Below, piece after piece: positions 2,457 through 47,006 of a DNA stretch of 64,000 bases. Position 1 is the stretch's first letter, and the number at the start of each line of letters is the position of its first letter. The DNA comes from Botryllus schlosseri (lineage: Eukaryota), in NCBI GenBank assembly GCA_051294905.1, contig CM119371.1, forward strand, positions 11,720,001-11,784,000. Direction: 5' to 3'. Under the pieces are notes generated by a model. That model was not told where the DNA came from. It was given only the letters and a program-made list of their open reading frames with translations, and made no database searches. The translations under genes and the position numbers were made by a program.

Positions 2457-4111
2457 GGCTAATTCCATTATAATTCAGCAAATTTTTTGAGATTTGTAAT
2501 GCATGCTCTCAGAATTGTCCAATATTTACATATGTTGTTCTTTTTTGAATTCCAAGTTTATTAAAAAAAAAGAAATTGAAAAATGTTCAGCGGTTCAAAA
2601 GATATTGTGATGTAAAATCCTCTCGTCACTAGGTGGCGCTACTTTCAAAAATCTTTGAAATCGATATTTTTCGCTTTAATTATGGTAGAGAACCAATTAA
2701 AATGTCCATTTAACCAATTCTGGGGCCAAGGAATTCAATAAAACCAACTGTTTCGCCCTAAACTCAATGAAAAAAATGTTACGGATGAAAATAAAAATGG
2801 GGGGACGGGCTTGAAAATGTCTGTAGGATACGACCTACACAAAAAAAATTCTTGTGAAATGTTCTTTTAAGGAGTATGGTTGATAAAAAGCTTGATTTTA
2901 AATATCACATTTATTCCACAGTGAAATATGCATCACATAAAGATTTCATGGTCCCAACCCATATCCCTGCTCACCGTAAATACTATTATCACCAGTCATA
3001 TATATGAAAATTTATTAGAAATGGTTTCGAAATTTTTCAAGTAGAATCCGTGCAGAACCACCGCTTCAATAATAATAGCAAAAAATATTTACAATTGGTC
3101 TTGACATGTGGCAAGTCGACGATCCAAAATGCATGCCAAACACGAAACAAGAAATACGTTCGGATTTTTGACTTTTGACAATGCTAAGAGACAAAATGCA
3201 TTTTCTCGTTTGTTCCATGTCACATTCCAGGTGTCATGAAATGAGAAAATACTTTTTTTTTATCTTTGCCTTATCTTCTGGATAAATTGTGTATTTGAGG
3301 GCGGATCGTCGTGCAGTGTTTGTAGAGTCCTTTAGTTGAGGTTGCTGGATCTCACAAAGAATGTGCTGAAAGTGGACCCAGCAATTGTCCTCTCTTGGTG
3401 GCCATACAAATAATTCTTCTGTGGTATCAGACATGTGAAGGAAATTTACAAGAGTATCTTTTGACTCCGTATTAATTTCCATAATCAATTGTTACTATGT
3501 CTTTTGTTACTTGCTTCTATTATTGTTGAAGCGTTGGTTCCGCACGGATTCTACTTGAAAAATTGCGAAAACTAAATCGAATAAATTTATTGATATATAT
3601 GACTGGTGATAATAGTATTTACGGCGAGCAGGGATATGGGTTGGGACCATGAAATTTTTATGTAAGGCATATTTCACGGTGGAATAACAGTGAAATTTAA
3701 AATCAAGCTTTTTATAAACCATACTCCTTAAAAGCACATTTCACAAGAATTGTTTTTGTGTAGGCCGTATCCTACAGACATTTTCAAGCCCGTCCCCCCC
3801 CCATTTTTTTCATTGAGTTTAGGGCGAAACAGTTGGTTTTATTGAATTCCTTGGCCCCAGAATTGGTTAATTGGACATTTTAATTGGTTCTCTACCATCA
3901 TTTGAGCGAAAAATATCGATTTCAAAGATTTTTGAAAGTAGCGCCACCTAGTGACGAGAGGATTTTAAATCGCAATATCTTTTGAACCGCTGAACATTTT
4001 TCAATTTTTTTTTAAATAAACTTGAAATTCAAAAAAGAACAACATTTGTAAATATTGGACAATTCTGAGGGTATGCATTACAGCCCCTGTTGAATTATAA
4101 TGGAATTAGCC
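2457..4111. mobile_element. Long-TIR (~600 bp) foldback-type DNA transposon derivative with a 4-bp TSD (Sola-like, tentative)
   Basis: Termini GGCTAATTCCATTATAATTCA...TGAATTATAATGGAATTAGCC, with GAGT on both sides (2453-2456, 4112-4115). Arms ~2457-3080 and ~3515-4111 are imperfect inverted copies. The core holds a minus-strand coding remnant (VNFLH...FVWPPREDNCWVHFQHILCEIQQP, 3234-3488). Confidence 0.7.
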
Positions 4112-6139
4112 GAGTGTAATTCTACATTGGCCACTCCAGCAAGTTCATTACTTTTATTGCTGCAGTTGGAATAACCGATTCGCGCATGTGCTAGGTCGAT
4201 TCGTTCACCGTATGTGCAGAAGTATTTCTATTCATAAAATATACACATTATAATGGGAGGGTATTTGAAGCTAACATGGTTATGGCACTGTCATCATCGT
4301 ATGTCCTGGAGTTGAACCAAAAGTAGAATCAGTCAATCTATAAACAGATCACGGTTCACAGACTCAAATCTCCACCCTGTTTCAAGAATCAGGACAACCG
4401 GATATTTTTCGCTTTAATTATGGTAGAGAACCAATTAAAATGTCCATTTAACCAATTCTGGGGCCAAGGAATTCAATAAAACCAACTGTTTCGCCCTAAA
4501 CTCAATGAAAAAAATGTTACGGATGAAAATAAAAATGGGGGGACGGGCTTGAAAATGTCTGTAGGATACGACCTACACAAAAAAAATTCTTGTGAAATGT
4601 TCTTTTAAGGAGTATGGTTGATAAAAAGCTTGATTTTAAATATCACATTTATTCCACAGTGAAATATGCATCACATAAAGATTTCATGGTCCCAACCCAT
4701 ATCCCTGCTCACCGTAAATACTATTATCACCAGTCATATATATGAAAATTTATTAGAAATGGTTTCGAAATTTTTCAAGTAGAATCCGTGCAGAACCACC
4801 GCTTCAATAATAATAGCAAAAATATTTACAATTGGTCTTGACATGTGGCAAGTCGACGATCCAAAATGCATGCCAAACACGAAACAAGAAATACGTTCGG
4901 ATTTTTGACTTTTGACAATGCTAAGAGACAAAATGCATTTTCTCGTTTGTTCCATGTCACATTCCAGGTGTCATGAAATGAGAAAATACTTTTTTTTTAT
5001 CTTTGCCTTATCTTCTGGATAAATTGTGTATTTGAGGGCGGATCGTCGTGCAGTGTTTGTAGAGTCCTTTAGTTGAGGTTGCTGGATCTCACAAAGAATG
5101 TGCTGAAAGTGGACCCAGCAATTGTCCTCTCTTGGTGGCCATACAAATAATTCTTCTGTGGTATCAGACATGTGAAGGAAATTTACAAGAGTATCTTTTG
5201 ACTCCGTATTAATTTCCATAATCAATTGTTACTATGTCTTTTGTTACTTGCTTCTATTATTGTTGAAGCGTTGGTTCCGCACGGATTCTACTTGAAAAAT
5301 TGCGGAAACTAAATAGAATAAATTTATTGATATATATGACTGGTGATAATAGTATTTACGGCGAGCAGGGATATGGGTTGGGACCATGAAATTTTTATGT
5401 AAGGCATATTTCACGGTGGAATAACAGTGAAATTTAAAATCAAGCTTTTTATAAACCATACTCCTTAAAAGCACATTTCACAAGAATTGTTTTTGTGTAG
5501 GCCGTATCCTACAGACATTTTCAAGCCCGTCCCCCCCCCCATTTTTTTTCATTGAGTTTAGGGCGAAACAGTTGGTTTTATTGAATTCCTTGGCCCCAGA
5601 ATTGGTTAATTGGACATTTTAATTGGTTCTCTACCATCATTTGAGCGAAAAATATCGATTTCAAAGATTTTTGAAAGTAGCGCCACCTAGTGACGAGAGG
5701 ATTTTAAATCGCAATATCTTTTGAACCGCTGAACATTTTTCAATTTTTTTTTAAATAAACTTGAAATTCAAAAAAGAACAACATTTGTAAATATTGGACA
5801 ATTCTGAGGGTATGCATTACAGCCCCTGTTGAATTATAATGGAATTAGCCGAGTGTAATTCTACATTGGCCACTCCAGCAAGTTCATTACTTTTATTGCT
5901 GCAGTTGGAATAACCGATTCGCGCATGTGCTAGGTCGATTCGTTCACCGTATGTGCAGAAGTATTTCTATTCATAAAATATACACATTATAATGGGAGGG
6001 TATTTGAAGCTAACATGGTTATGGCACTGTCATCATCGTATGTCCTGGAGTTGAACCAAAAGTAGAATCAGTCAATCTATAAACAGATCACGGTTCACAG
6101 ACTCAAATCTCCACCCTGTTTCAAGAATCAGGACAACCG
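2663..6139 (+). repeat. Near-identical tandem duplication, unit ~1,738 bp (2663-4400 and 4401-6139)
   Basis: Both units start GATATTTTTCGCTTTAATTATGG and end CAGGACAACCG. ORFs 3234-3488 and 4971-5225 translate identically. Differences are a few SNPs and homopolymer lengths. Confidence 0.95.
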
Positions 6140-6366
6140 ACTTTCATCCCTAGTTTTGAAAATTCGTTATTGAGGTAGACCAGCTTAGGAAATCTCGCCA
6201 ACGTTTCTGACGAGCGTAAGATGTCTTCAAATCAATGGTTGGTTGGTTTTGAATGAACATATATATAATTTTCATATCCTCACTATATAATCAAATACCA
6301 ATATTGCGTTTTGGTTTATAATCCCAAATTCATGTAGTGCGGCCCGCGAATGGATTAAGATGTTAA

Positions 6367-6854
6367 AGGGGCACTGCGCTCTAAAAATGATGTGGTCTCA
6401 AATTGAAGGTAAAAACGAACAAAATTTTTTGGCCCCAGCCATTTCCTTCAGAACGCCACCGTAATGGAGCTGCATGCAATTTATTGAAATTTTTACAAGA
6501 CCAGCTGCCGCGGCTGCTTAACCCGTTACATGGCACGATGTCTTCATCGTCGCACTTGCTCGACGCAGTCACGCTGAGAACGAAACTTAGACACATTTCC
6601 TTCATAACATCGGCTGACAACTATCTAAAATTCGTTCTCTGCGTGACTGTCTATAATCGCGTCGAGCAAATGTGACGGTGAAGACATCGTGCCATGTAAC
6701 GGGTTAAGCAGCCGCGGCAGCTGGTCTTGTAGAAATTTCAATAAATTGCAGCTCCATTACGGTGGCGTTCTGAAGGAAATGGCCGCGGCCAAAACTTTTT
6801 GTTCGTTTTTACCTTCAATTTGATACCACATCATTTTTACAGCGCAGTGCCCCT
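6367..6854. mobile_element. Palindromic MITE with TTAA TSD (Kolobok-like)
   Basis: TTAA|AGGGGCACTGCGCT...AGCGCAGTGCCCCT|TTAA. Inverted arms ~180 bp. Purine-purine termini plus TTAA fit Kolobok. Confidence 0.8.
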
Positions 6855-7067
6855 TTAAGCTATACATTGATACTGTGGAGGTAGTCTTAAACTGACAACT
6901 CACTTAAACACACAGAGTTGGCTAGAAAATGGGCAGCCATAAGCAATACAATTGATAGGACTGTGTTGGTATATTGAAATTGACGAGAATAATAGCAAAC
7001 AGTGTAACTGTGAGTACTCCATGGCAATCTGTAGTTATTGGTAAGTATCTTCCATTGACAAGCCAAG

Positions 7068-7142
7068 ATCCGATGCCGATGTGATAGTCGATATGTAGGT
7101 GGCACGTCTCAGCGCTTGCAGCAAAGAATTCGCCAGCATATC
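7068..7142 (+). pseudogene. Penelope-like element, 5' part of the GIY-YIG endonuclease (5'-truncated), interrupted by the giant palindrome
   Basis: Reads IRCRCDSRYVGGTSQRLQQRIRQHI up to the CATATC TSD and continues in frame at 22577. Confidence 0.85.
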
Positions 7143-9549
7143 AGTAGTGAGGGTACCTGAAATCGGTACGCACCAATCAGAGAAGGCCACGTCGCCTTAA
7201 TTGCCACGCCTACATTGTCACATCATCCGCCCCTTGCCGCACCTATAGCACACCTATTGCCACATCATCCATCCATTGCTATATCATCGCTGCATTGATT
7301 GCCGCATCTTGATACTTTTCTCAGATATTGTATTATGTGTATTTAGGACTAATATCATCCGTCCATATTTTTTTAACTTGATTTTATGTGTACAAGTTAC
7401 GGTTTCTGCAGTTTCCACATTTTACGACTTATGATTGCTGCGTCAAAACTTACCTTGGCTAGAATCGACAGATTTTCTATTATGTGTATTTAGGACTATG
7501 TATTTAAATTCCTATTCAGATTATACATAAATGCGAAAACTATGATGTCTATGTAAGGTTATATTCTCCGGATAATATTATTAATATCAAAATTCTACAC
7601 ATCATCACTAATTACTTAATATAAAATGCGATTTTGAGCGCTGCGACTTGATAATATGAACCCCTACGCTTCTGATGCATGATTTTTTGTGATAAGGACC
7701 TAGGTAACATTCAGAGTCTGCAACGATTGTTTGGATATACATTATAGCAATACCCCACTAAACTATAGGCGGTTATATTACTCTATTGGTCAGAGATAAC
7801 TCATCCGTCCATATTTTTAAACTTGATTTTATGTATACAAGTTACTGTCTCTGCAGCCTCCACATTTTACGACTTATTTTCATTAGACGCAGGCAAGCGA
7901 TTCTCCAGTTCGGAGCTACGGAAACAAATCACTCGCATGTGCGCGTTCCGAATAGTCTTGTAGAATTTTCTAAAGTCGGAACAGCTTAGTAGCATATACG
8001 CGAATCCCAAGGTGAAAATAATCGAACGAACTATAGCCGTAGGCGTGCGATTCGCAAGGCTTTATTTATACAAACTCTATCGATGCCTGTACGCGAACCC
8101 CAGCGTTAAAACGATTAGGTCTAATTAACACGTTCTGAAGCCGAAAATTTAGTCAACATCATTGAGATAGCCATGATTTGAAGATGGTGATCGAGTGTGA
8201 CAATAGCACTCGCCAAGGTTAGACAAACATAACCTTAAACTACTCTCTACTTCACAAAATATAAAGTTATAAAAGTAAGCAGATTTCTATGAAAACCCGT
8301 GAAATAGAAGTAAAAGTAGCCTAGAAACATAACTACTTAATGAAAAATCGTGATTCTTGAAGTGACCACATTTCATACGATTCAGTCCTTTTCATGTCAC
8401 TAGAATAAGGTGATTAAACTGACAGTGAAACGCCGCCGGCGTCTTATAACGTAATAATGTAAGCTGCGCCGGGTGCTGCTATAATGTTAGGAGCGAATAT
8501 AGTAGAAAGTTCACGTCTGGACATCTGTAAGTAGGTGCGCATACTACCGTAGTAAAACGCATAACAGAATTCACGCAAAAGTCGATATTGCTTTGTGATG
8601 CTTTTGATGTTGTTCCATACCGATTGGGAAGATAGGACTCCTAATTTCCTAACTAACTACATAATCCCTAGTAACGTAGTCAGACGCATAACGGAATTTA
8701 CGCAAAATCGGTATTGCTCTGCGATAATTTGACCACTATGTTTTGATAATAACTTGCTTCCGAGAAATAAATAACATTCATTATACGTTAGATGATACTT
8801 TTCCTTGATATTCTATTATGTGTATTTAGGGCTAATGCGACATCACTATATTGGCGACAGGCCTGATTTGAACACACTAATTTTGCGAATTAAACTTATC
8901 CCCCAACACGGACACTCAATGAAGAGCACCCCGGAGACCCGCATAAATGCTCCACAATTCTCGACATATAATATACTGAGCATATAATAAGCTAACAAAA
9001 CCTATACTTGAGTACTCCGAAATGTACAAGTACTTTAACTTTACACGACGTTTTTGTAAAATGAATACTAATTTTAATGGAAAATAAAAATTATGTACTC
9101 AAGTAGGTTTTTGTCTACACGCACCAACTACTCAAGTGTTTATGACACAGGAATGATTCATTAAGTATACCACAAGCAGGCCAAACATAATTTAATGGAT
9201 TTATCTGAGATCATTGAGAAGAAGCGTTTCAGAGTCGAACCAAGCACCTTATCGAGCTACCTTGCTCATGGTCGACTGCTACCGGACGCATAGGCTACTC
9301 GGAAAACTACGAATACAATGCGTACCGCACTTTGCAAATTGTTTCGATTTATTCTAGCCGTTTTAATTTAAGGAAGCCCATTTCACTCAATGTATCGATG
9401 CCTACAGTATAGAGTAGGCCTATACTCTACAAAATTTTCTGATTAATTCTTCCTACGTTAATTTACCATAAGAAAGACAATTTGACTCCTAAAGTCCGAA
9501 ATTTTGGGGAGGGGGCCGACGGTCAGTAAATCATTTCGAAGTGCAAGTA

Positions 9550-10098
9550 CAGGAATATCATTATGTCCTACAACTGTGTACTAACGTTCAAGGTGAGAAT
9601 TTAATGTTTAGCATGCTAATTCTGTTATTGAAATTGACTATGTATGGGTATATGCTATGTTCACGAAAATCAGATATGCCTAAAAGTCAGTATTCGACTG
9701 CGATAGTTTCAAAGGTGTTCCATCATTAGATGTGTGATGAAATTTAGCATGGTGCATTGTCATAAGGCTCTACAACTACGTATCAAGTTTAGAGTTGGTA
9801 TTCAATGTTAAGCATGGTAATTCCGTTATTAAAGTCGGCTATGTATGGGTACGTGCTATACGCTCCCACAAACAGATGTACGCAAAAAGCCGATGTAGAG
9901 TCGCGTTAGTTTTAAAGTTGTTCCATCATGAAATGTGTGATGGGATTTGGTATGGTGCATTTTTATAATGTCCTATAACCGCGTACCAACTTTCAAGGTG
10001 GGAATTCAATGTTTAACACGCTAATTCTGCTATTGAAATTGACTATGTATAGGTATATGCTATGTTCACGCAAAACAGATATGCGTAAAAGTCGGTAA
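9550..10098 (+). repeat. Array of ~200-bp diverged tandem units (~2.7 copies); mirror copy at ~19615-20163
   Basis: CTATGTAT recurs at ~9638, 9839 and 10043, and TGTGTGATG at ~9731 and 9933. Confidence 0.85.
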
Positions 10099-10207
10099 CC
10101 CTGTGTTCTCGATTTCTAACTAAAATAGTTACTGAGTAGAATTTGCAATCACTTTCATCTCGCTAAATAACTCTCGCATAGCCCTATCGCTCGAAATATA
10201 TCACCAA

Positions 10208-11042
10208 TCACCTGTTCAGAGCAATAAACACATTTCCACAATGATTTTTTATATTCGTAATATGCGATAATACATCATTAATTATACGAATCATTACCAT
10301 TTGCGTAGAGTAAACATCAAATTCATCTGCTCTCGGCGCTAATTTGGGGAACGAAATTGGTACAATTTGCATATTACCCTTAACGTCGAATTCATTCAGT
10401 TTCACGTTTAATTTCCGGATAAATTCGTTCACAATCAATCATAGTTTCATTCACTTTTATGAGGACATTTCGCTTGCTGTTATATGGTGAAATTAAGTGG
10501 AATTTCACATGACACCCAATAGTTCTACAGTTCCCACGAATCTGGAAAATTGGTAATCGCTCAACGAAACCATTATATTCAACGTCTTCGAAGAAGAACG
10601 AGCAGCAACTCTTATACATCAGTAGCTTCCTACATAAAATACCCTCCCATCTCAAACAATTTTTCGAATGAAATGAGTTCAGCATTACGCTCCACTCTTC
10701 TCTGGTGAGCTCAGATCGGTAGTAGACAGAAACTATATCAGTTTCATCTACAAGACTTGTTGATATTCCATGAAACACCGCCATTCCCATGAGAATTTGA
10801 ATCTCATAACGCACAAGGAATCGCTTGAGAAATTTGATATCATCTTCTCTACGCTTCTTCGAGAGTGAATTTGAATACGGACGATAGTCAGATAATATAT
10901 TTCGCCAGGTATTCGGATCAGCTAGATTCTCATCTTCATGTCTTAATAGAAGCTCCACCATATTCTGTACAGTTAATTGTCTTTTCACCCGCTGAGCCAT
11001 TTTTCTGATACGATACGATACATAACGAAAAACATTCACCAT
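10208..11042 (-). pseudogene. Frameshifted ~276-aa ORF, left-arm copy; unknown function, possibly NOF-like N-terminal domain
   Basis: ORFs 10392-11042 and 10208-10438 join if a 4-nt GATT duplication is removed. It mirrors 18671-19505. Confidence 0.6.
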
Positions 11043-12154
11043 AATATATATTCTGAATATATTTTTTTCTAACCATCCTCGAGGAAATCCACAACTATTT
11101 CCAGAACCCTCCCAATAAATGTATGTCTAATTCTTTGCGAGGACTAAGATTTCACCTAAATAGAGATCAATCATTCTTACGATGTCGAAAAAACTAAACA
11201 GATAAACAAAAAACTCTACCAACATTAAATCAGAATACTCTTACCACCTATCAAGGATAATATAGCTCCGCGAAGACAACTGAACCTTTCGTTAACCTTA
11301 TGTAGCTAATTACAACCTCATTGAGAATAGCTAATTCGCGATAACACTAACCATAGCGACGTTCCAAAGCGTCATGTTTATATTGGATTCTCGCTAATAC
11401 CCCAACAGCTGATAAAGTTAGATAGAGGCTACTAGCTTTAGTTTTTCCTAAACGAAAACTCATAGATACTCAAGTAGAAGACGCACCCATAAATTTATAC
11501 TCGAGTGCAAGTGGAAGTCGTGATTCTCAAGTAAGCAAAATGTAAGTATTCATGAGTTGGTTTAAATGAAGATTGTCAAGTATAAGTAGCATAAACATCA
11601 TATTTGTAGTAGCATGTCCTCAAGATATTTTCAGTTAGGTCTAATTTCACGCTGCTTACCATCCGTACATGCACTTTGGATTCACATTCTTTTCAAGGGA
11701 TAAGCCACACATACGAGAAAAGGCACGCAGTTGAAAAATTCATGATTTCGTCCGAGTTTGTATTTTAGTAATATATACTAATTTACGATACCGCGTTTGT
11801 AACTTAATTTTAGGTCAAATTTGATTCGATTACGGGCATTATAGCGACAGAGATTTACGATACTGTAAAATGACCTACCTTATGACATCAAATTTCGTCT
11901 TCTCTCCAAGTGAAAATATCATGTTCTATAATATTGTCCATACCGAACAAATATAAATTTGCCTGTGCTGTTGCTTTGCAAGAATACTTCGCTCACATAG
12001 TAACCAATTTCTGGTGGATTCCGAATCGATATAGACAGAAATGTGGAAAGTTACATTGGCATGTCTTAACTTCTACCAATATGTAGGCCTACCTACCTAT
12101 AATCTTATCAGGCCGTAGCGCTCACGCAAAGCATTATCAACTAAAGGAAAACAG

Positions 12155-12820
12155 ACTTTTGCGTAAATCTGTTTTTCGATAGCGTAGCACGTACCTATAC
12201 ATAGTAAGCTTCAATAACGGAAGTACCATGCTTATAATCAAATCCCCACCCTGAAACTTGGTACGCATGTAGTTGTAGGACATAATGAATATACACCAAA
12301 CCAAATTTCATCAGACATTTCATGATGCAACACCTTTAAAACCAACGCAGTTCTATACCGAATTTTGACTAAATCTATTTGTCCGTAGCGTAGCACGTAG
12401 CTATACAGTATACATAGTCAACTTTAATAACGAAATTACCATGTTGATAATCGACTCCCCACCTTGAAACTCGGTACGCAGTTGTAACACAATGCACCAT
12501 GTCAAATTCGGTTACGCATTTCATGATTGAACAACTTTAAAACTAGCGCAGTTCGACACCGACTTTTGCGGGAGAGTAGCATGTACCTATGCATAATCAA
12601 CTTTAATAACGAAATGACCATGCTATACATTGAATGCGCAACTAGAAAATTGGTTCACAGGTGTAGGACATTATGACAATGGAACATATCAAATTTCATC
12701 ACACATTTCATGATGGAACACCTTTAAAACTAACGCAGTTCTATACCGATTTCACGTGAATCTGTTAGCGGGAGCGTAGCACGTACCTATGCGTAGTTAA
12801 CTTTTATGACGGAATTACAG
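12155..12820 (-). repeat. Second array of the same ~200-bp unit (~3.3 copies), inverted relative to 9550-10098; mirror copy at ~16893-17558
   Basis: TAGCA(C/T)GTA recurs at ~12185, 12391, 12577 and 12777, and TTTCATGAT at ~12318, 12519 and 12706. These are reverse complements of the 9550-10098 unit. Confidence 0.85.
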
Positions 12821-14833
12821 ATGTAATTAAGTTTCAACACTTTTACAATGATTCGTCTTGCTTCCTATAACATCCCACTCGAAGCCCTCGTTATTAGGCT
12901 ATGATCTCAGCCTGAGCTATGTCTTGAAGCCTACGGGAATCTGCAAATTGTTTCGATTTATTCTGTCAGTTTCAATTTAAGATAAGGGAACCCATTTCAC
13001 TCAATGTATCGATGCCTACGGTACTCTACAAAATTTTCTGATTAATTCTCCCTATGTTAATTTATCATAAGAAAGGTGATTTGAATCCTAAAGTACGAAA
13101 TACTTGTTCGCTTGAGCTGAGCCGCAGCGCTTGGAGTGGAATTTTACGAGGTATGTGGACTCATTTCGAAGGGCTCTATGCCATAGGAGCATACTTTACG
13201 CTCCAATTCGACTCCCATACATTCCATATAGTTACTAACAGAACCATTGAGTACCAGCCTGGAAATTTCGCGTAGCACTAGATGGTATGTATACAATTTC
13301 ATGACATCCGACAGTACGACGGAGACTATCAAAATATCGACAGAAGCCCTCTATTCTTTTCTGAAATAATCAAGGTTTTATCAGGACTTCCCTTCATATA
13401 AATTCCAGCAGAATCACTAATAACCTCTCAAGTTTACTCAATTTACTCTAATTTGACACTCGAGTTCTTAATCCCTATTTTCCGCAAGTATGATACAGGC
13501 TATCGCTCGATACTCAACGATTCGTAATTTTGCTGGAATACAAGTACAATTAGGGATTAAAAAGTAGCTAATATAGGTGGTTATGTTTGTAGATTATTTA
13601 CACTTCTATACTTGGCGGTTTTTCAGGAGAAACTACCTACTTTTAGGACTTTATATTTTAAAGTAGCTTTAGGTTACGTTTGTATCACTTTGACAAGTGC
13701 TATCATCAAAACTGCTTTTGCTAAACTCTTACACTTTCAGTAAACTTCTACACTGAATCTTGTAAAGTAGATAGAAGAGGAAAACTACTATCATAAGGTA
13801 CGTGAGAAGCACGCAAATTTTGATCGCATACAAATGCCACAAACCGCGCTGACTTTCAGAGTTGTTAAGTATAGAAGTACTCGTACTTCTTGAGAATACC
13901 CAAGTAGCTTTTTTGCCTAAATGCACCAAATACTCTCAAGTCCTTATTGGAGTACATCAACTTCATGATAGCTACAGTATAAAACAGAAATAGACCTAGA
14001 GTACTAACGTTTTACTTACTCGGAAATGACTGCTTCTACCTTATTTTAAAGGATTCCTCGCTCGGAGCGAAATTTTATGGGGTTTTGGATAATATCCAAG
14101 ATGTAGGGTCACTTTGAAGGGTACTTCGTAAAACTTAAATATTGCGCAGTGAGAGTTCGCAAATTTTCGAAGTATTTTTGTTATTTTTATTGCGATAAGT
14201 CATTCTGCGCCGCGAAAATGCGTCGTCGGATATAGAGGAAACTAGCAGCACTCATCAGGACCACTGAAAACAGTACATTTCAACATTTAGTAGCAGTAAA
14301 TTTCTAGTAAAGTACAAGAAGTGATGATTTCCGAGCGAGTTAAAAAGTAAGTATTGAAGGTATTGTTCGCTCGAAAACCGTAAAACTCTGAAATAGAAGT
14401 AGATGCAGTGTAGATAGTTAATCACTTCATTCAGTATAGCGCAATCAGGTCAAACCTATACTTGAGTACTCCAAAGTGTACAAGTACTTCGCTATGTACT
14501 CCCTCCACGTAAAAAGTGACTAGAGTTTAGAGTACTTTATCGATACTTGACAGTTTCAGTTTTAGATAAAATTCAGTAAGACTTTAAATTTTAAAGTAGT
14601 TTGAGCTTACGTTTGTATCACCTTGACAAGTAACATTATCAGACATGAAAATGATATTATAACCTAATACAGAAGTTAACACACGTCAATGTGCTTCGGA
14701 ATTCACGAGAAATTGCTTACTAAGAGGAGTATATTCTTGTATACACAATAGTGGAGAGAATCTTTAAAATGTAGTAAGCAGGCCGATGGGTATTCGTTGA
14801 GTTGTATAAGCATAAAAAAACATTCCCGCGCGC

Positions 14834-14879
14834 TCCTAAACCTAACACTTCCTAAGCCACCACCACCTAATACTAAGAC
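14834..14879. other. 46-nt non-palindromic centre (spacer) of the giant palindrome
   Basis: TCCTAAACCTAACACTTCCTAAGCCACCACCACCTAATACTAAGAC, bounded by CATTCCCGCGCGC and GCGCGCGGGAATG. Confidence 0.95.
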
Positions 14880-17800
14880 GCGCGCGGGAATGTTTTTTTA
14901 TGCTTATACAACTCAACGAATACCCATCGGCCTGCTTACTACATTTTAAAGATTCTCTCCACTATTGTGTATACAAGAATATACTCCTCTTAGTAAGCAA
15001 TTTCTCGTGAATTCCGAAGCACATTGACGTGTGTTAACTTCTGTATTAGGTTATAATATCATTTTCATGTCTGATAATGTTACTTGTCAAGGTTATACAA
15101 ACGTAAGCTCAAACTACTTTAAAATTTAAAGTCTTACTGAATTTTATCTAAAACTGAAACTGTCAAGTATCGATAAAGTACTCTAAACTCTAGTCACTTT
15201 TTACGTGGAGGGAGTACATAGCGAAGTACTTGTACACTTTGGAGTACTCAAGTATAGGTTTGACCTGATTGCGCTATACTGAATGAAGTGATTAACTATC
15301 TACACTGCATCTACTTCTATTTCAGAGTTTTACGGTTTTCGAGCGAACAATACCTTCAATACTTACTTTTTAACTCGCTCGGAAATCATCACTTCTTGTA
15401 CTTTACTAGAAATTTACTGCTACTAAATGTTGAAATGTACTGTTTTCAGTGGTCCTGATGAGTGCTGCTAGTTTCCTCTATATCCGACGACGCATTTTCG
15501 CGGCGCAGAATGACTTATCGCAATAAAAATAACAAAAATACTTCGAAAATTTGCGAACTCTCACTGCGCAATATTTAAGTTTTACGAAGTACCCTTCAAA
15601 GTGACCCTACATCTTGGATATTATCCAAAACCCCATAAAATTTCGCTCCGAGCGAGGAATCCTTTAAAATAAGGTAGAAGCAGTCATTTCCGAGTAAGTA
15701 AAACGTTAGTACTCTAGGTCTATTTCTGTTTTATACTGTAGCTATCATGAAGTTGATGTACTCCAATAAGGACTTGAGAGTATTTGGTGCATTTAGGCAA
15801 AAAAGCTACTTGGGTATTCTCAAGAAGTACGAGTACTTCTATACTTAACAACTCTGAAAGTCAGCGCGGTTTGTGGCATTTGTATGCGATCAAAATTTGC
15901 GTGCTTCTCACGTACCTTATGATAGTAGTTTTCCTCTTCTATCTACTTTACAAGATTCAGTGTAGAAGTTTACTGAAAGTGTAAGAGTTTAGCAAAAGCA
16001 GTTTTGATGATAGCACTTGTCAAAGTGATACAAACGTAACCTAAAGCTACTTTAAAATATAAAGTCCTAAAAGTAGGTAGTTTCTCCTGAAAAACCGCCA
16101 AGTATAGAAGTGTAAATAATCTACAAACATAACCACCTATATTAGCTACTTTTTAATCCCTAATTGTACTTGTATTCCAGCAAAATTACGAATCGTTGAG
16201 TATCGAGCGATAGCCTGTATCATACTTGCGGAAAATAGGGATTAAGAACTCGAGTGTCAAATTAGAGTAAATTGAGTAAACTTGAGAGGTTATTAGTGAT
16301 TCTGCTGGAATTTATATGAAGGGAAGTCCTGATAAAACCTTGATTATTTCAGAAAAGAATAGAGGGCTTCTGTCGATATTTTGATAGTCTCCGTCGTACT
16401 GTCGGATGTCATGAAATTGTATACATACCATCTAGTGCTACGCGAAATTTCCAGGCTGGTACTCAATGGTTCTGTTAGTAACTATATGGAATGTATGGGA
16501 GTCGAATTGGAGCGTAAAGTATGCTCCTATGGCATAGAGCCCTTCGAAATGAGTCCACATACCTCGTAAAATTCCACTCCAAGCGCTGCGGCTCAGCTCA
16601 AGCGAACAAGTATTTCGTACTTTAGGATTCAAATCACCTTTCTTATGATAAATTAACATAGGGAGAATTAATCAGAAAATTTTGTAGAGTACCGTAGGCA
16701 TCGATACATTGAGTGAAATGGGTTCCCTTATCTTAAATTGAAACTGACAGAATAAATCGAAACAATTTGCAGATTCCCGTAGGCTTCAAGACATAGCTCA
16801 GGCTGAGATCATAGCCTAATAACGAGGGCTTCGAGTGGGATGTTATAGGAAGCAAGACGAATCATTGTAAAAGTGTTGAAACTTAATTACATCTGTAATT
16901 CCGTCATTAAAGTTGACTACGCATAGGTACGTGCTACGCTCCCGCTAACAGATTCACGTGAAATCGGTATAGAACTGCGTTAGTTTTAAAGGTGTTCCAT
17001 CATGAAATGTGTGATGAAATTTGATATGTTCCATTGTCATAATGTCCTACACCTGTGAACCAATTTTCTAGTTGCGCATTCAATGTATAGCATGGTCATT
17101 TCGTTATTAAAGTTGATTATGCATAGGTACACGCTACTCTCCCGCAAAAGTCGGTGTCGAACTGCGCTAGTTTTAAAGTTGTTCAATCATGAAATGCGTA
17201 ACCGAATTTGACATGGTGCATTGTGTTACAACTGCGTACCGAGTTTCAAGGTGGGGAGTCGATTATCAACATGGTAATTTCGTTATTAAAGTTGACTATG
17301 TATACTGTATAGCTACGTGCTACGCTACGGACAAATAGATTTAGTCAAAAGTCGGTATAGAACTGCGTTGGTTTTAAAGGTGTTGCATCATGAAATGTCT
17401 GATGAAATTTGGTATGGTGTATATTCATTATGTCCTACAACTACATGCGTACCAAGTTTCAGGGTGGGGATTTGATTATAAGCATGGTACTTCCGTTATT
17501 GAAGCTTACTATGTATAGGTACGTGCTACGCTATCGAAAAACAGATTTACGCAAAAGTCTGTTTTCCTTTAGTTGATAATGCTTTGCGTGAGCGCTACGG
17601 CCTGATAAGATTATAGGTAGGTAGGCCTACATATTGGTAGAAGTTAAGACATGCCAATGTAACTTTCCACATTTCTGTCTATATCGATTCGGAATCCACC
17701 AGAAATTGGTTACTATGTGAGCGAAGTATTCTTGCAAAGCAACAGCACAGGCAAATTTATATTTGTTCGGTATGGACAATATTATAGAACATGATATTTT

Positions 17801-18670
17801 CACTTGGAGAGAAGACGAAATTTGATGTCATAAGGTAGGTCATTTTACAGTATCGTAAATCTCTGTCGCTATAATGCCCGTAATCGAATCAAATTTGACC
17901 TAAAATTAAGTTACAAACGCGGTATCGTAAATTAGTATATATTACTAAAATACAAACTCGGACGAAATCATGAATTTTTCAACTGCGTGCCTTTTCTCGT
18001 ATGTGTGGCTTATCCCTTGAAAAGAATGTGAATCCAAAGTGCATGTACGGATGGTAAGCAGCGTGAAATTAGACCTAACTGAAAATATCTTGAGGACATG
18101 CTACTACAAATATGATGTTTATGCTACTTATACTTGACAATCTTCATTTAAACCAACTCATGAATACTTACATTTTGCTTACTTGAGAATCACGACTTCC
18201 ACTTGCACTCGAGTATAAATTTATGGGTGCGTCTTCTACTTGAGTATCTATGAGTTTTCGTTTAGGAAAAACTAAAGCTAGTAGCCTCTATCTAACTTTA
18301 TCAGCTGTTGGGGTATTAGCGAGAATCCAATATAAACATGACGCTTTGGAACGTCGCTATGGTTAGTGTTATCGCGAATTAGCTATTCTCAATGAGGTTG
18401 TAATTAGCTACATAAGGTTAACGAAAGGTTCAGTTGTCTTCGCGGAGCTATATTATCCTTGATAGGTGGTAAGAGTATTCTGATTTAATGTTGGTAGAGT
18501 TTTTTGTTTATCTGTTTAGTTTTTTCGACATCGTAAGAATGATTGATCTCTATTTAGGTGAAATCTTAGTCCTCGCAAAGAATTAGACATACATTTATTG
18601 GGAGGGTTCTGGAAATAGTTGTGGATTGCCTCGAGGATGGTTAGAAAAAAATATATTCAGAATATATATT

Positions 18671-19505
18671 ATGGTGAATGTTTTTCGTTATGTATCGTAT
18701 CGTATCAGAAAAATGGCTCAGCGGGTGAAAAGACAATTAACTGTACAGAATATGGTGGAGCTTCTATTAAGACATGAAGATGAGAATCTAGCTGATCCGA
18801 ATACCTGGCGAAATATATTATCTGACTATCGTCCGTATTCAAATTCACTCTCGAAGAAGCGTAGAGAAGATGATATCAAATTTCTCAAGCGATTCCTTGT
18901 GCGTTATGAGATTCAAATTCTCATGGGAATGGCGGTGTTTCATGGAATATCAACAAGTCTTGTAGATGAAACTGATATAGTTTCTGTCTACTACCGATCT
19001 GAGCTCACCAGAGAAGAGTGGAGCGTAATGCTGAACTCATTTCATTCGAAAAATTGTTTGAGATGGGAGGGTATTTTATGTAGGAAGCTACTGATGTATA
19101 AGAGTTGCTGCTCGTTCTTCTTCGAAGACGTTGAATATAATGGTTTCGTTGAGCGATTACCAATTTTCCAGATTCGTGGGAACTGTAGAACTATTGGGTG
19201 TCATGTGAAATTCCACTTAATTTCACCATATAACAGCAAGCGAAATGTCCTCATAAAAGTGAATGAAACTATGATTGATTGTGAACGAATTTATCCGGAA
19301 ATTAAACGTGAAACTGAATGAATTCGACGTTAAGGGTAATATGCAAATTGTACCAATTTCGTTCCCCAAATTAGCGCCGAGAGCAGATGAATTTGATGTT
19401 TACTCTACGCAAATGGTAATGATTCGTATAATTAATGATGTATTATCGCATATTACGAATATAAAAAATCATTGTGGAAATGTGTTTATTGCTCTGAACA
19501 GGTGA
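18671..19505 (+). pseudogene. Frameshifted ~276-aa ORF, right-arm copy
   Basis: ATG at 18671. In ATGATTGATTGTGAAC at ~19271, deleting one GATT gives ...VNETMIVNEFIRKLNVK... through to the stop at 19505. Confidence 0.6.
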
Positions 19506-22500
19506 TTGGTGATATATTTCGAGCGATAGGGCTATGCGAGAGTTATTTAGCGAGATGAAAGTGATTGCAAATTCTACTCAGTAACTATTTTAGTTAGAAA
19601 TCGAGAACACAGGGTTACCGACTTTTACGCATATCTGTTTTGCGTGAACATAGCATATACCTATACATAGTCAATTTCAATAGCAGAATTAGCGTGTTAA
19701 ACATTGAATTCCCACCTTGAAAGTTGGTACGCGGTTATAGGACATTATAAAAATGCACCATACCAAATCCCATCACACATTTCATGATGGAACAACTTTA
19801 AAACTAACGCGACTCTACATCGGCTTTTTGCGTACATCTGTTTGTGGGAGCGTATAGCACGTACCCATACATAGCCGACTTTAATAACGGAATTACCATG
19901 CTTAACATTGAATACCAACTCTAAACTTGATACGTAGTTGTAGAGCCTTATGACAATGCACCATGCTAAATTTCATCACACATCTAATGATGGAACACCT
20001 TTGAAACTATCGCAGTCGAATACTGACTTTTAGGCATATCTGATTTTCGTGAACATAGCATATACCCATACATAGTCAATTTCAATAACAGAATTAGCAT
20101 GCTAAACATTAAATTCTCATCTTGAACGTTAGTACACAGTTGTAGGACATAATGATATTCCTGTACTTGCACTTCGAAATGATTTACTGACCGTCGGCCC
20201 CCTCCCCAAAATTTCGGGCTTTAGGAGTCAAATTGTCTTTCTTATGGTAAATTAACGTAGGGAGAATTAATCAGAATATTTTGTAGAGTATAGGCCTACT
20301 CTATACTGTAGGCATCGATACATTGAGTGAAATGGGCTTCCTTAAATTAAAACGGCTAGAATAAATCGAAACAATTTGCAAAGTGCGGTACGCATTGTAT
20401 TCGTAGTTTTCCGAGTAGCCTATGCGTCCGGTAGCAGTCGACCATGAGCAAGGTAGCTCGATAAGGTGCTTGGTTCGACTCTGAAACGCTTCTTCTCAAT
20501 GATCTCAGATAAATCCATTAAATTATGTTTGGCCTGCTTGTGGTATACTTAATGAATCATTCCTGTGTCATAAACACTTGAGTAGTTGGTGCGTGTAGAC
20601 AAAAACCTACTTGAGTACATAATTTTTATTTTCCATTAAAATTAGTATTCATTTTACAAAAACGTCGTGTAAAGTTAAAGTACTTGTACATTTCGGAGTA
20701 CTCAAGTATAGGTTTTGTTAGCTTATTATATGCTCAGTATATTATATGTCGAGAGTTGTGGAGCATTTATGCGGGTCTCCGGGGTGGTCTTCATTGAGTG
20801 TCCGTGTTGGGGGATAAGTTTAATTCGCAAAATTAGTGTGTTCAAATCAGGCCTGTCGCCAATATAGTGATGTCGCATTAGCCCTAAATACACATAATAG
20901 AATATCAAGGAAAAGTATCATCTAACGTATAATGAATGTTATTTATTTCTCGGAAGCAAGTTATTATCAAAACATAGTGGTCAAATTATCGCAGAGCAAT
21001 ACCGATTTTGCGTAAATTCCGTTATGCGTCTGACTACGTTACTAGGGATTATGTAGTTAGTTAGGAAATTAGGAGTCCTATCTTCCCAATCGGTATGGAA
21101 CAACATCAAAAGCATCACAAAGCAATATCGACTTTTGCGTGAATTCTGTTATGCGTTTTACTACGGTAGTATGCGCACCTACTTACAGATGTCCAGACGT
21201 GAACTTTCTACTATATTCGCTCCTAACATTATAGCAGCACCCGACGCAGCTTACATTATTACGTTATAAGACGCCGGCGGCGTTTCACTGTCAGTTTAAT
21301 CACCTTATTCTAGTGACATGAAAAGGACTGAATCGTATGAAATGTGGTCACTTCAAGAATCACGATTTTTCATTAAGTAGTTATGTTTCTAGGCTACTTT
21401 TACTTCTATTTCACGGGTTTTCATAGAAATCTGCTTACTTTTATAACTTTATATTTTGTGAAGTAGAGAGTAGTTTAAGGTTATGTTTGTCTAACCTTGG
21501 CGAGTGCTATTGTCACACTCGATCACCATCTTCAAATCATGGCTATCTCAATGATGTTGACTAAATTTTCGGCTTCAGAACGTGTTAATTAGACCTAATC
21601 GTTTTAACGCTGGGGTTCGCGTACAGGCATCGATAGAGTTTGTATAAATAAAGCCTTGCGAATCGCACGCCTACGGCTATAGTTCGTTCGATTATTTTCA
21701 CCTTGGGATTCGCGTATATGCTACTAAGCTGTTCCGACTTTAGAAAATTCTACAAGACTATTCGGAACGCGCACATGCGAGTGATTTGTTTCCGTAGCTC
21801 CGAACTGGAGAATCGCTTGCCTGCGTCTAATGAAAATAAGTCGTAAAATGTGGAGGCTGCAGAGACAGTAACTTGTATACATAAAATCAAGTTTAAAAAT
21901 ATGGACGGATGAGTTATCTCTGACCAATAGAGTAATATAACCGCCTATAGTTTAGTGGGGTATTGCTATAATGTATATCCAAACAATCGTTGCAGACTCT
22001 GAATGTTACCTAGGTCCTTATCACAAAAAATCATGCATCAGAAGCGTAGGGGTTCATATTATCAAGTCGCAGCGCTCAAAATCGCATTTTATATTAAGTA
22101 ATTAGTGATGATGTGTAGAATTTTGATATTAATAATATTATCCGGAGAATATAACCTTACATAGACATCATAGTTTTCGCATTTATGTATAATCTGAATA
22201 GGAATTTAAATACATAGTCCTAAATACACATAATAGAAAATCTGTCGATTCTAGCCAAGGTAAGTTTTGACGCAGCAATCATAAGTCGTAAAATGTGGAA
22301 ACTGCAGAAACCGTAACTTGTACACATAAAATCAAGTTAAAAAAATATGGACGGATGATATTAGTCCTAAATACACATAATACAATATCTGAGAAAAGTA
22401 TCAAGATGCGGCAATCAATGCAGCGATGATATAGCAATGGATGGATGATGTGGCAATAGGTGTGCTATAGGTGCGGCAAGGGGCGGATGATGTGACAATG

Positions 22501-22570
22501 TAGGCGTGGCAATTAAGGCGACGTGGCCTTCTCTGATTGGTGCGTACCGATTTCAGGTACCCTCACTACT

Positions 22571-23230
22571 CATATCCCACGGCAGATTAGAATAACTAAT
22601 GTTTCTCCAACGCCTTCATTGCAGTCTGTTGACACACTGCGTGATTATGATCAAGTTACTGCTTGTAATTTGGCTATTGGACAGCATCTCTTATCCCATC
22701 CAGAATGTGCTGATCATTACAATGACAGTCAACTTTCTAGTGGCCGTTCTCTTTTTCATTTAAAGGTCCTGGAATCTACGATCATAAAACTACGAAAGCC
22801 AATTCTCTGTCGCCAGAAGGAACGCCTCTACACTCTCGGAATATTTATATATGGAATATTTATGCGTTGTGTTTTCGGTTATTTATAACCGAATATGTAG
22901 GCTACTCGTTAACGTTTGTTTTGTACCGTTACTATACCGTATCTTGCCCGTCTACTAGTTGTTTGTTGTTGGTTTTTATTACGTCATAGACACAAAATGG
23001 TTCTTAAATTTCGAATTTGATCCACCCTATCACTGACGTTCGCTACTAATGAGGGTCAGTCGAAAATCTTTTAGCAAATAAATTAACAATATGAAGTTAT
23101 TGTTTCGCGTTCTTCTTTTTACGTTACTTTCTCTTTTACGCCTGATGAAGGAGCAGCGCTCCGAAAGCTCGTGTAACTAATAAAGTTATATTCATTCGCA
23201 AGTGGACGTTAAATAGAGTGTGAAAGCTAC
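22571..23230 (+). mobile_element. Penelope-like element, 3' part (rest of GIY-YIG domain plus 3' UTR/pseudo-LTR)
   Basis: HIPRQIR...AIGQHLLSHPECADHY...RSLFHLKVLESTIIKLRKPILCRQKE matches the typical PLE endonuclease C-terminus. It is followed by a hammerhead motif and AATAAA (23179). Confidence 0.8.
23136..23176 (+). ncRNA. Minimal type I hammerhead ribozyme (Penelope-associated)
   Basis: TTACGC-CTGATGA-A-GGAGC(AGC)GCTCC-GAAA-GC-TC-GTGTAA: intact CUGAUGA and GAAA core boxes, 5-bp stem II, stem I TTACGC/GTGTAA, and palindromic AGCT in place of stem III. Confidence 0.85.
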
Positions 23231-24366: not shown

Positions 24367-25253
24367 TCAGTGAATCTTCTTCAGCTTCGCACCAAAAAGT
24401 TCTTCAAGAAATTTCACTTTCGATCTATCGGAAGGATACTCCTTAAATGATATACTGAAATCCTGCAAAGATAAAAATCACAATCGACCCAACTCCATTT
24501 TGAGGCAAAACAAACCTCGATGTTGAAGCGACCTTGATTCCATTCCTGGTATTGCCCTCCTTTACGAATCGAGATATTGATGGCGTCATCGTCCTTGTTT
24601 TTCAAATCGCCGGCATCCAGCTCGACTTTCTGAACATTGTGTCAGCTTAAAACCATCGTGACGCCATATCACACAGGCATTGATTATTATTGATCGCGTG
24701 TTCGGCTCTATATTCGGTTAAATGCGTTGAATGTGACTGACCTTCCAATGCAGGTTTCCAGACCACGATTCAATCCGAGGATGTCCGAGAAACGAACGGA
24801 GCGTGCGACCTGAGATGTTGTTGTTGTTGCGGCGCAAATTCACTTCCTCCACCTGAAACCGCTTTGTTGATCCACTGTGGAGGTATAACGCAACAAAACT
24901 ACTCACGTGGACTGGCTCCTTGAGACATCTCGCGATGACGGCCAACATCTCGTCGTCGATCTGGCAGTAGCGTAAATCCAACTCCCTAAGTCCCTGACTC
25001 CTCGCTACGAGCGTTCCAACGACATGAGCTTGATCGCGGCTCAATGGGGTACGAAATACATCGATGTCGTCAACGTGTTTCATGAGATCGACGTCGTCTG
25101 ATTCGTAGATCGTCATGTAAAGTTCCAGGCGAATAAGCCGCGTGAGTGTGTGCTCTTCGGGTGTCATGTATATGTATCGCTCTGTATGCATCTTCTTCAG
25201 CTGCGAGTGGATCGATCGAGCGAGGACTTTCCGCTTCATTGTTTGAGACGACA
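24367..25253 (-). CDS. NLR-type gene, 3' exons (helical/LRR-like region): 25253-24907, 24852-24742, 24629-24516, 24462-24367
   Basis: LRELDLRYCQIDDEML and VEEVNLRRN are RI-like LRR motifs. GT-AG introns of 54, 112 and 53 nt keep the frame to TGA at 24367-24369. The phase-1 acceptor at 25254-25255 matches the phase-1 donor of the NACHT exon. Confidence 0.75.
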
Positions 25254-25437
25254 CTGTGACGAGACGCACGGTGATAGACGGTCTCTACGCTGCACGCGTC
25301 ACAATGAGAGACATTCACACACTTGGGCGTCAGAACCTCGTCCTGGCGATCCATTGTTTACAGTGGATACAAGCAAACATCGTCTTCGTTTGTTGACATG
25401 TGGCATAAAGGTAGTTATGTAAGACATTCATTTATAC

Positions 25438-46801: not shown

Positions 46802-46971
46802 CAGTGGTTCCCAACGTGGGCGATATCGCCCCCCAGGGGGCGATTTGGCGATCTAGGGGGGCGAAAATGACGAAGGGGGCGATAGGGGGGCGAAAATGGA
46901 CAAAGGGGGCGACGGGGGGCGAAAATAGCGAAGGGGGCGATAGGGGGGCGATGACGCGTCAAAACGGCTGA

Positions 46972-47006
<35 letters not shown>

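What the first reader, a model, noticed from the sequence alone, without database searches (positions are those of the whole stretch)
14821..14892. Palindrome centre is a strand-asymmetric, telomere-like CCTAA spacer clamped by GCGCGC
Seen: the 46-nt spacer has four CCTAA motifs plus ACTAA and CCACCACCACC, and only two Gs. The opposite strand reads TTAGG-TGG-TGG-TGG-CTTAGG...TTAGGTTTAGG. Alternating GC runs flank it within AT-rich DNA. Inference: this looks like a structured turnaround rather than a random break. It could be a hairpin loop or resolution site, a two-tetrad G-quadruplex, or a relic of telomere-like healing at the fold-back point.
Basis: partly seen in the sequence, partly recalled or inferred. 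Interest (0 to 1): 0.7.

Follow-up and report, generated by a model that had tools for sequence, protein, structure and literature searches.

The report
Inherited loop of giant palindromic transposon
The odd 46-base stretch is real, but it is the inherited, unpaired centre of a 15-kb mirror-image mobile element with Maverick/Polinton virus-like ends in a sea-squirt-type genome, not a scar where a telomere was added.

Summary
In detail: the 46-nt spacer (14834-14879) has four CCTAA, one ACTAA and two G, far beyond chance. It is the centre of a 15,428-bp element with 7,691-bp arms (14 substitutions), AGTAGT//ACTACT ends and a 6-bp target duplication, the end signature of Mavericks/Polintons, with no core genes found. 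The host looks like an ascidian. Contigs of 4 of 4 public runs laid cover the spacer, deeply and with variants, so it is a family feature, not a one-off break: 'structured turnaround' is supported. Telomere healing is not: the spacer holds no TTAGGG (the repeat reported for a tunicate), and TTAGG is not that repeat. A G-quadruplex is possible on paper but unremarkable (G4Hunter 0.84; 110 window loci reach that). The second GCGCGC only mirrors the first. Best reading: an ancestor folded back at a short GC-rich inverted repeat, and the whole palindrome now spreads as a helper-dependent snap-back element with this as its passive loop (about 0.6). A sequence-specific role for the degenerate telomere-like hexamers stays open (about 0.2). 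The scan already noted this element family on other DNA of this genome, including another copy with a 46-bp spacer (unchecked).

The parts
7137..7142 (+). Left copy of the 6-bp target-site duplication CATATC
   Evidence: Same hexamer at 22571-22576. Contigs of X16 and X18 leave the window at 7139 and continue into the right flank, i.e. an empty-site allele.
7143..14833 (+). Left arm, 7,691 bp, beginning with the AGTAGT end motif; mosaic of non-coding repeat modules plus one ORF
   Evidence: end motif as in PMC8097293
9558..10097 (.). Block of roughly 200-bp repeat units inside the arm; 71% inverted match to 12151-12818 (mirrored in the right arm)
10392..11042 (-). 216-aa ORF of unknown family in a low-copy part of the arm
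   Evidence: no homolog; only sub-0.9 leads; low depth at 10128-11741
12151..12818 (.). Second block of roughly 200-bp units, inverted relative to 9558-10097
14714..14780 (.). Small separate stem-loop (9-bp stem, 49-nt loop) next to the centre; the only perfect stem of 9 bp or more with a 3-60 nt loop found in the left arm
14781..14833 (+). Inner 53 bp of the left arm: A7 run, then GC-rich clamp ending in GCGCGC (14828-14833)
   Evidence: mirror of the stretch to which the X17 contig lays on the right side
14834..14879 (+). 46-nt central spacer/loop: degenerate CCTAAN hexamers, C/A-rich, unstructured
   Evidence: covered in 4 of 4 runs laid, with variants
14880..14932 (+). Inner 53 bp of the right arm: GC clamp then T7 run; the GC run and T run vary in length among other copies
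   Evidence: table 4 (rows 14879, 14893) and record 24
14880..22570 (-). Right arm, 7,691 bp, ending in ACTACT on the + strand; 14 substitutions against the left arm
18671..19321 (+). Mirror copy of the 216-aa ORF, identical in protein sequence
22571..22576 (+). Right copy of the 6-bp target-site duplication

Best explanation
The 46 nt are the inherited loop of a non-autonomous, almost wholly palindromic Maverick/Polinton-ended element. Shown: element boundaries, 6-bp target duplication, end motif, an empty-site allele, no core genes found, high representation of the spacer in other samples, no self-structure in the loop. Inferred, origin: in an ancestor the spacer sat inside a short GC-rich inverted repeat. 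A nascent or broken strand folded back there and copied itself, giving a palindrome whose two ends come from one Maverick end. Inferred, spread: a helper Maverick's integrase and protein-primed polymerase act on the ends. Each displaced single strand snaps back into a 7.7-kb hairpin whose open end is a ready origin. The polymerase copies one arm, turns through the unpaired loop and copies the other, so the spacer is passed on with the element. Inferred, persistence: a loop of this length is long enough to blunt the instability of a perfect palindrome in the chromosome. On this reading the CCTAAN hexamers are a degenerate telomere-like microsatellite carried in from the parent, kept because a C/A-only strand cannot pair with itself, and not a product of telomerase at this site.
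For: Ends AGTAGT//ACTACT, 6-bp duplication and 15,428 bp match vertebrate Mavericks: (AGT)2//(ACT)2 motif, 6-bp TSD, 12.7-24.6 kb (PMC8097293). Empty-site contigs in 2 of 4 runs. Spacer depth at 14879: X1 18,845, X16 39.8, X17 80, X18 1,630, against 34 in the ORF part of X1. Ratio to the arm at 14661: 0.46, 0.42, 0.36, 0.72, near the one-loop-to-two-arms expectation (summed contig depth, not a copy number). X17 record 24 spans 14717-14932 with 10 other letters and 4 gaps, has a T run one base shorter than its A run, and leaves 30 letters unlaid beyond 14932: a short imperfect stem. Both spacer strands fold at 0 kcal/mol. Short inverted repeats seed large palindromes by fold-back priming, and a 52-bp spacer removed fork stalling in eukaryotic cells where a 12-bp spacer did not (PMC7999016, passages).
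Against: No helper element and no second full copy could be read: no genome is held, and searches of viral and metagenome contigs found nothing related. The depth ratio is less tidy against 14727 (0.35, 0.47, 0.15, 0.47), and the tool warns that summed depth is no copy number. The 30 unlaid letters of record 24 could be a clipping effect, because only 28 bases of the laid stretch remained beyond 14932. A purely passive loop does not explain why the hexamers are kept; an X18 variant has five CCTAA instead of four. Kapitonov and Jurka 2006, the source of the replication model, was not held, so that model is recalled.
Confidence: 0.6

Rival explanations
1. The loop is a sequence-specific cis-element. 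The degenerate TTAGGN hexamers recruit a host telomere-repeat-binding protein or an element-encoded factor that protects, nicks or resolves the hairpin.
For: Motif enrichment far beyond chance. Best (CCCTAA)n match in the window. The motifs persist, and are more telomere-like, in an X18 variant seen in 4 contigs. Six-base spacing between two pairs of motifs.
Against: No perfect TTAGGG in this copy. Copies vary inside the spacer and in the GC clamp: a 2-nt loss at 14879 in 4,222 of 18,845 in X1. The arm ORF has no nuclease or resolvase signature. Unchecked scan notes describe sister subfamilies with loops of about 1 kb or deleted centres, so this loop may not be required.
Confidence: 0.2
2. The G-rich strand forms a two-tetrad G-quadruplex that pauses the polymerase and defines the fold-back point.
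For: Seven GG tracts. ViennaRNA's quadruplex option places a two-layer structure on GG-T-GG-T-GG-T-GG at -18 kcal/mol (its quadruplex energies are, from recall, RNA-derived).
Against: G4Hunter best 25-mer 0.84, whole spacer 0.65. 110 loci of this window reach 0.84 and 54 two-tetrad motifs occur on the two strands. The usual cut-off of about 1.2 is recalled. No run of three G in this copy. The perfect GGT repeat is altered in the X18 variant.
Confidence: 0.07
3. Relic of telomerase healing: a broken end received telomeric repeats and then folded back.
For: Hexamer-like periodicity resembling CCCTAA.
Against: No intact TTAGGG unit and no tandem array, although the arms differ by only 0.18%, too little time for a fresh tract to decay in this copy. 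The reported tunicate repeat is TTAGGG, not TTAGG (Oikopleura; this host's own repeat was not measured by me). A much older healing event in the family's ancestor cannot be excluded.
Confidence: 0.06
4. The element is a foldback transposon of another superfamily (FB- or Mutator-like), whose ends resemble Maverick ends by chance; the spacer is simply its centre.
For: Long arms with internal repeat units of about 200 bp. The arm ORF has weak (0.86 or less) feature likeness to GCM, FAR1 and Mutator DNA-binding domains (lead only).
Against: Exact (AGT)2//(ACT)2 motif together with a 6-bp duplication and Maverick-like length. FB and Mutator duplications are 9-11 bp (recalled).
Confidence: 0.06
5. 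Assembly or library artefact (fold-back chimeric read).
For: Arms are 99.8% identical; no read spanning the whole element was available (contigs only).
Against: Target duplication on both sides and an empty-site allele. 14 substitutions with no indel. At three mismatch sites (11085, 12798, 12805) the right arm carries the common family letter and the left a rare one. The spacer with both inner stems occurs in an independent study.
Confidence: 0.01

Closest known systems
Maverick/Polinton elements with (AGT)2//(ACT)2 ends (Barreat and Katzourakis 2021, PMC8097293; passages and section 7 read)
   Same: End motif, 6-bp target duplication, length within 12.7-24.6 kb.
   Different: Inverted repeats of 7,691 bp (46-1,447 bp reported) make up 99.7% of the element; no polymerase, integrase, capsid, protease or ATPase gene found.
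Non-autonomous Polintons with very long inverted repeats (Kapitonov and Jurka 2006; recalled, paper not held)
   Same: From recall, zebrafish non-autonomous Polintons made mostly of inverted repeats were described there; this would be the same architecture.
   Different: Could not be checked. Here the loop is only 46 nt and telomere-like.
Snap-back genomes of adeno-associated virus (PMC8235507, passages read)
   Same: Self-complementary, helper-dependent genome made from one end of the parent, with a central loop.
   Different: AAV uses Rep and terminal hairpins and makes heterogeneous fold points. This element has Maverick ends, is integrated with a target duplication, and seems to keep one inherited fold point.
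Fold-back-primed palindromes at short inverted repeats (PMC7999016, passages read)
   Same: Large palindrome centred on a short inverted repeat with a non-palindromic spacer.
   Different: Those are one-off chromosome rearrangements; this one is a mobile unit whose centre recurs in other samples.
Interstitial degenerate telomere tracts (PMC9071541, passage read)
   Same: Degenerate telomere-like hexamers at an internal site.
   Different: Only about seven degenerate units, none perfect in this copy, and carried by a mobile element.

Membership tests
Maverick/Polinton (autonomous) | 6-bp target-site duplication | tested here: met
   CATATC at 7137-7142 and 22571-22576; empty-site contigs in X16 and X18
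Maverick/Polinton (autonomous) | (AGT)2//(ACT)2 or (AG)3//(CT)3 end motif within terminal inverted repeats | tested here: met
   definition
Maverick/Polinton (autonomous) | Protein-primed PolB, integrase, capsid, protease and ATPase genes | tested here: not met
   Longest frame in the left arm is 244 aa stop to stop and all others are 78 aa or less. That ORF has no Pfam hit and no homolog. The short frames were not scanned for decayed fragments.
Non-autonomous Maverick derivative | Ends shared with an autonomous helper in the same genome | not testable with these tools
   No genome held; only unchecked scan notes say helpers exist
Telomerase-healed end / telomeric tract | Perfect tandem copies of the host telomere repeat | tested here: not met
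   No TTAGGG or CCCTAA in 14834-14879 and no dimer of either, or of TTAGG, anywhere in the window; no tandem array called there. Host repeat taken from another tunicate.
Telomerase-healed end / telomeric tract | Added at a unique break, at a molecule end | tested here: not met
   Internal, and present in 4 of 4 runs laid at high depth
G-quadruplex | Four tracts of three or more G (canonical) | tested here: not met
   Seven GG tracts, none longer
G-quadruplex | Two-tetrad motif that folds in K+ | tested here: inconclusive
   Motif present and predicted by ViennaRNA, but G4Hunter 0.84 and 54 such motifs in the window; folding needs CD or DMS
Parvovirus/poxvirus-type resolution hairpin | Flip and flop forms of the hairpin and a dedicated nicking or resolving enzyme | not testable with these tools
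   Identical arms hide orientation; contigs do not link the spacer to distant arm markers; no such enzyme recognised in the ORF
FB/Mutator-like foldback transposon | Long arms with internal tandem units | tested here: met
   Blocks of roughly 200-bp units in each arm
FB/Mutator-like foldback transposon | 9-11 bp target duplication (recalled) | tested here: not met
   The duplication is 6 bp

The most novel reading that the evidence does not exclude
A subfamily of snap-back satellites of a virus-like Maverick has fixed a telomere-mimicking loop at its single turnaround. The degenerate TTAGGN hexamers recruit host telomere-binding proteins (or a fold of the G strand) to shield the hairpin tip from MRN/Artemis-type opening during extrachromosomal replication. 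That would be telomere mimicry by a transposon satellite and would explain how 15-kb, 99.8% perfect palindromes survive in many copies in an animal genome.
Probability: 0.15. Interest if true: 0.8.

Novelty: new variant of a known kind. Interest (0 to 1): 0.42.

Why it matters
Near-perfect 15-kb palindromes are normally unstable, yet this one moved as a unit with Maverick ends and its centre recurs across samples. How Mavericks replicate has little direct evidence. A family of snap-back dependants with one fixed, 46-nt turning point gives a natural read-out of that cycle, since loop inheritance, arm homogenisation and size constraint can all be measured from an assembly. The spacer itself matters only if its telomere-like hexamers are selected; if they are not, it is an ordinary fold-back loop of an element family the scan has already noted many times.

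Tried and rejected
No whole genome was held, so copies could not be aligned in full. Exact-pattern scans of viral contigs for the spacer and for the terminus found 0 loci. Metagenome contigs gave 0 loci and then 2; both were GC-rich chance matches with unrelated spacers and no BLAST match to the window. The arm ORF had no Pfam family, no homolog among 44 candidates, 0 hits in 1.84 billion representatives, no viral locus and only sub-0.9 Atlas leads. Its single-sequence model had pLDDT 39.6, so no fold search was run. Rfam gave 0 matches in 13800-15100, ARAGORN 0 genes, and the terminator scan 0 sites (bacterial consensus, not apt for this host). The spacer can be read as proline-rich codons in a 65-aa stop-to-stop frame; I set this aside, as the frame runs through both mirror arms and I did not search it. 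By-sequence look-ups of earlier findings gave nothing for the centre and nothing for the terminal control either, so that blank is uninformative. The 14 arm mismatches look clustered (P about 0.01, threshold chosen after the fact); not relied on. A recalled precedent of palindromic elements with central telomere-like repeats in nematodes was not found in the library. Paper searches for palindromic non-autonomous Polintons listed no paper on them by title or abstract; most of those papers I saw only as listings.
Full report
Observation. The spacer lies at 14834-14879 and is 46 nt long with 18 C, 17 A, 9 T and 2 G. CCTAA starts at 14835, 14841, 14851 and 14866, and ACTAA at 14872. The CCA run and the minus-strand reading are as described. 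The enrichment is not chance. None of 200,000 Markov-simulated 46-mers had even three copies, 2 of 200,000 shuffles of the spacer had four, and no other cluster of more than two exists in the window. The GCGCGC hexamers at 14828 and 14880 are the innermost bases of the two arms and so mirror each other by construction.

What the palindrome is. The arms run 7143-14833 and 14880-22570, 7,691 bp each, with 14 substitutions and no indel. They begin AGTAGT and end ACTACT, and the hexamer CATATC flanks both ends. Vertebrate Mavericks have this end motif, 6-bp duplications and lengths of 12.7-24.6 kb, with inverted repeats of only 46-1,447 bp (PMC8097293, passages and section 7). The element is 15,428 bp and 99.7% inverted repeat. 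Its only sizeable frame is a 216-aa ORF, identical in both arms, with no recognisable relative. The host is probably an ascidian: 13 of the 14 hits of a neighbouring NACHT protein are Styela clava proteins at 32-35% identity.

It is real and mobile. I laid 4 of the 24 runs listed, from four studies, on 6900-14960; all are assembled contigs, and X1 may be the source sample. Contigs of X16 and X18 leave the window at 7139 and continue into the right flank with a single, slightly different copy of the target, so an empty allele exists. At 11085, 12798 and 12805 the common family letter is the right arm's, and the left arm carries the rare one. A chimeric read would give neither a target duplication nor such differences.

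The spacer is a family feature. Summed depth at 14879 is 18,845 in X1, 39.8 in X16, 80 in X17 and 1,630 in X18, against 34 over the ORF in X1. Relative to the arm at 14661 the ratios are 0.46, 0.42, 0.36 and 0.72; relative to 14727 they are 0.35, 0.47, 0.15 and 0.47. The tool warns that these sums are no copy number, so I take from them only that the spacer is highly repeated and roughly tracks the inner arm. It is not invariant. Four X18 contigs carry a version whose fifth motif is CCTAA, whose CCA run begins with CCCTA, and whose right GC run is shorter. A 2-nt loss in the right GC run affects 4,222 of 18,845 in X1. The tables were cut (40 of 762 substitution rows, 12 of 78 indel rows and 24 of 1,853 loose-end rows shown), so I cannot give a divergence rate. 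An unchecked scan note describes another giant palindrome 12.8 Mb away with a 46-bp spacer and about a hundred copies (e1-7803759). It moved me from 'one-off fold point' to 'inherited centre', and partly tests it. I could not see whether that spacer has the same sequence.

A possible parental form. X17 record 24 (242 nt, depth 80, minus strand) lays from 14717 to 14932 with 10 other letters and 4 gaps, and its first 30 letters did not lay. For minus-strand records the first record position is the high window coordinate; I checked this on X16 records 11 and 12, whose unlaid lengths of 226 and 55 give the listed median of 140 at 8351. So the unlaid letters lie beyond 14932. In this contig the T run right of the spacer is one base shorter (80 of 80) while no loss is listed for its A run. 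The same 1-nt loss holds for 2,005 of 3,018 in X18 and 5,962 of 29,038 in X1, and no matching row is shown for the left run. A 2-nt loss is about symmetric in X1 (5,506 and 6,875). So many copies have an imperfect inner stem, where the window copy is perfect for 214 bp. This fits a short hairpin of about 53 bp that predates the giant palindrome. The caveat is that only 28 bases of my stretch remained beyond 14932, so clipping could explain the unlaid letters.

Telomere and quadruplex ideas. The spacer is the window's best match to (CCCTAA)n, score 30-32 against 26 for the best unrelated place, and fits (CCTAA)n slightly less well, so the resemblance is real. But it has no intact TTAGGG unit, and TTAGGG rather than TTAGG is reported for the tunicate Oikopleura (PMC8008620, passage). 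An unchecked note says the same for this genome (e1-7880006). With arms 0.18% apart, a tract added at this copy's origin would still be nearly perfect. For a quadruplex, the G strand has seven GG tracts and ViennaRNA predicts a two-layer fold at -18 kcal/mol, which counts for the idea. Against it, the G4Hunter score is 0.84 at best, 110 window loci reach that value, and 54 two-tetrad motifs occur in the window. Without the quadruplex option both strands are unfolded.

How it most likely works. Short inverted repeats prime fold-back synthesis and yield large palindromes centred on their spacer; a 52-bp spacer abolished fork stalling in eukaryotic cells where 12 bp did not (PMC7999016, passages). 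I infer that a Maverick-derived ancestor folded back at the GC-rich stem. The product carries two copies of one end, which a helper's integrase and protein-primed polymerase can use. Each displaced strand would snap back into a long hairpin, be copied from its open end, and pass the loop on unchanged. AAV snap-back genomes are the nearest documented analogy (PMC8235507, passages). The Maverick replication model is recalled, because Kapitonov and Jurka 2006 was not held. From recall that paper already reported largely palindromic non-autonomous Polintons, which would lower the novelty of the architecture. No helper was seen by me. The loop's lack of G on one strand is what an unpairable turn needs, so a passive role suffices. 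What it does not explain is the retention of six-base CCTAAN units across variants, so I leave about 0.2 for a sequence-specific role.

Novelty and verdict. Searches listed no paper on palindromic Polinton satellites, and 39 and 58 none on telomere-like loops in such elements. I saw those results as listings, apart from passages of PMC6431247, bioRxiv 10.1101/2025.02.07.637071, PMC9071541 and PMC10674748, none of which describes this. The library lacks most subscription journals and I had no access to Repbase, and I read no supplements. The scan has noted the element family many times in this genome (157 of 310 notes fit my look-up). The specific addition here is that the 46-nt centre is inherited, variable, telomere-like only in a degenerate way, and probably older than the palindrome. 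New variant of a known kind; interest 0.42.

Noticed in passing
window 6900-14960, run X16: X16 shows 179 A>G and 150 T>C places against 15-59 for every other change; the other three runs show no such excess. If X16 is an RNA library (type not on record), this looks like ADAR hyper-editing of double-stranded RNA from these palindromes.
   Followed up: no
window 10128-11741 (mirror 17972-19585): The ORF-bearing part of the arm is low-copy in all four runs while the rest of the arm is high-copy. It is framed by two inverted blocks of roughly 200-bp units (9558-10097, 12151-12818, 71%), like a captured or nested older element.
   Followed up: partly
window 10392-11042 and 18671-19321: Orphan 216-aa protein, identical in both arms, with a Cys-containing beta-rich C-terminal part and weak feature likeness to GCM/FAR1-type DNA-binding domains.
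   Followed up: partly
window 14714-14780: A second stem-loop (9-bp stem, 49-nt loop) directly beside the central hairpin; some family contigs skip 14494-14767 or diverge at about 14761.
   Followed up: partly
window 8469-14619: The 14 arm mismatches fall mostly in two patches (8926-9593 and 12299-12805), with long perfect stretches between; possibly patchy conversion between arms or copies.
   Followed up: partly
window 6363-6858 and 27735-28366: Two smaller palindromic MITE-like elements (about 500 and 630 bp); neither has a CCTAA-type centre.
   Followed up: partly
window 2567-6139: A 1.74-kb unit duplicated in tandem at near 100% identity, itself containing inverted repeats.
   Followed up: no
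window 35161-36582 (-) and 24718-25269 (-): NACHT exon of an NLR gene closest to Styela clava NLRs, with a weak LRR-type frame further along the same strand.
   Followed up: partly
window 58994-60618 (+) and 54786-55415 (+): Split hAT transposase remnant and a DDE_1 (pogo-like) fragment.
   Followed up: no
window 57257-57279 and 61932-61982: The only canonical three-tetrad quadruplex motifs in the window, built of GGGTTCGGGCC-type units.
   Followed up: no
window 46854-47004: 29-bp G-rich minisatellite followed by a 31-nt T run, inside a small repeat element.
   Followed up: no
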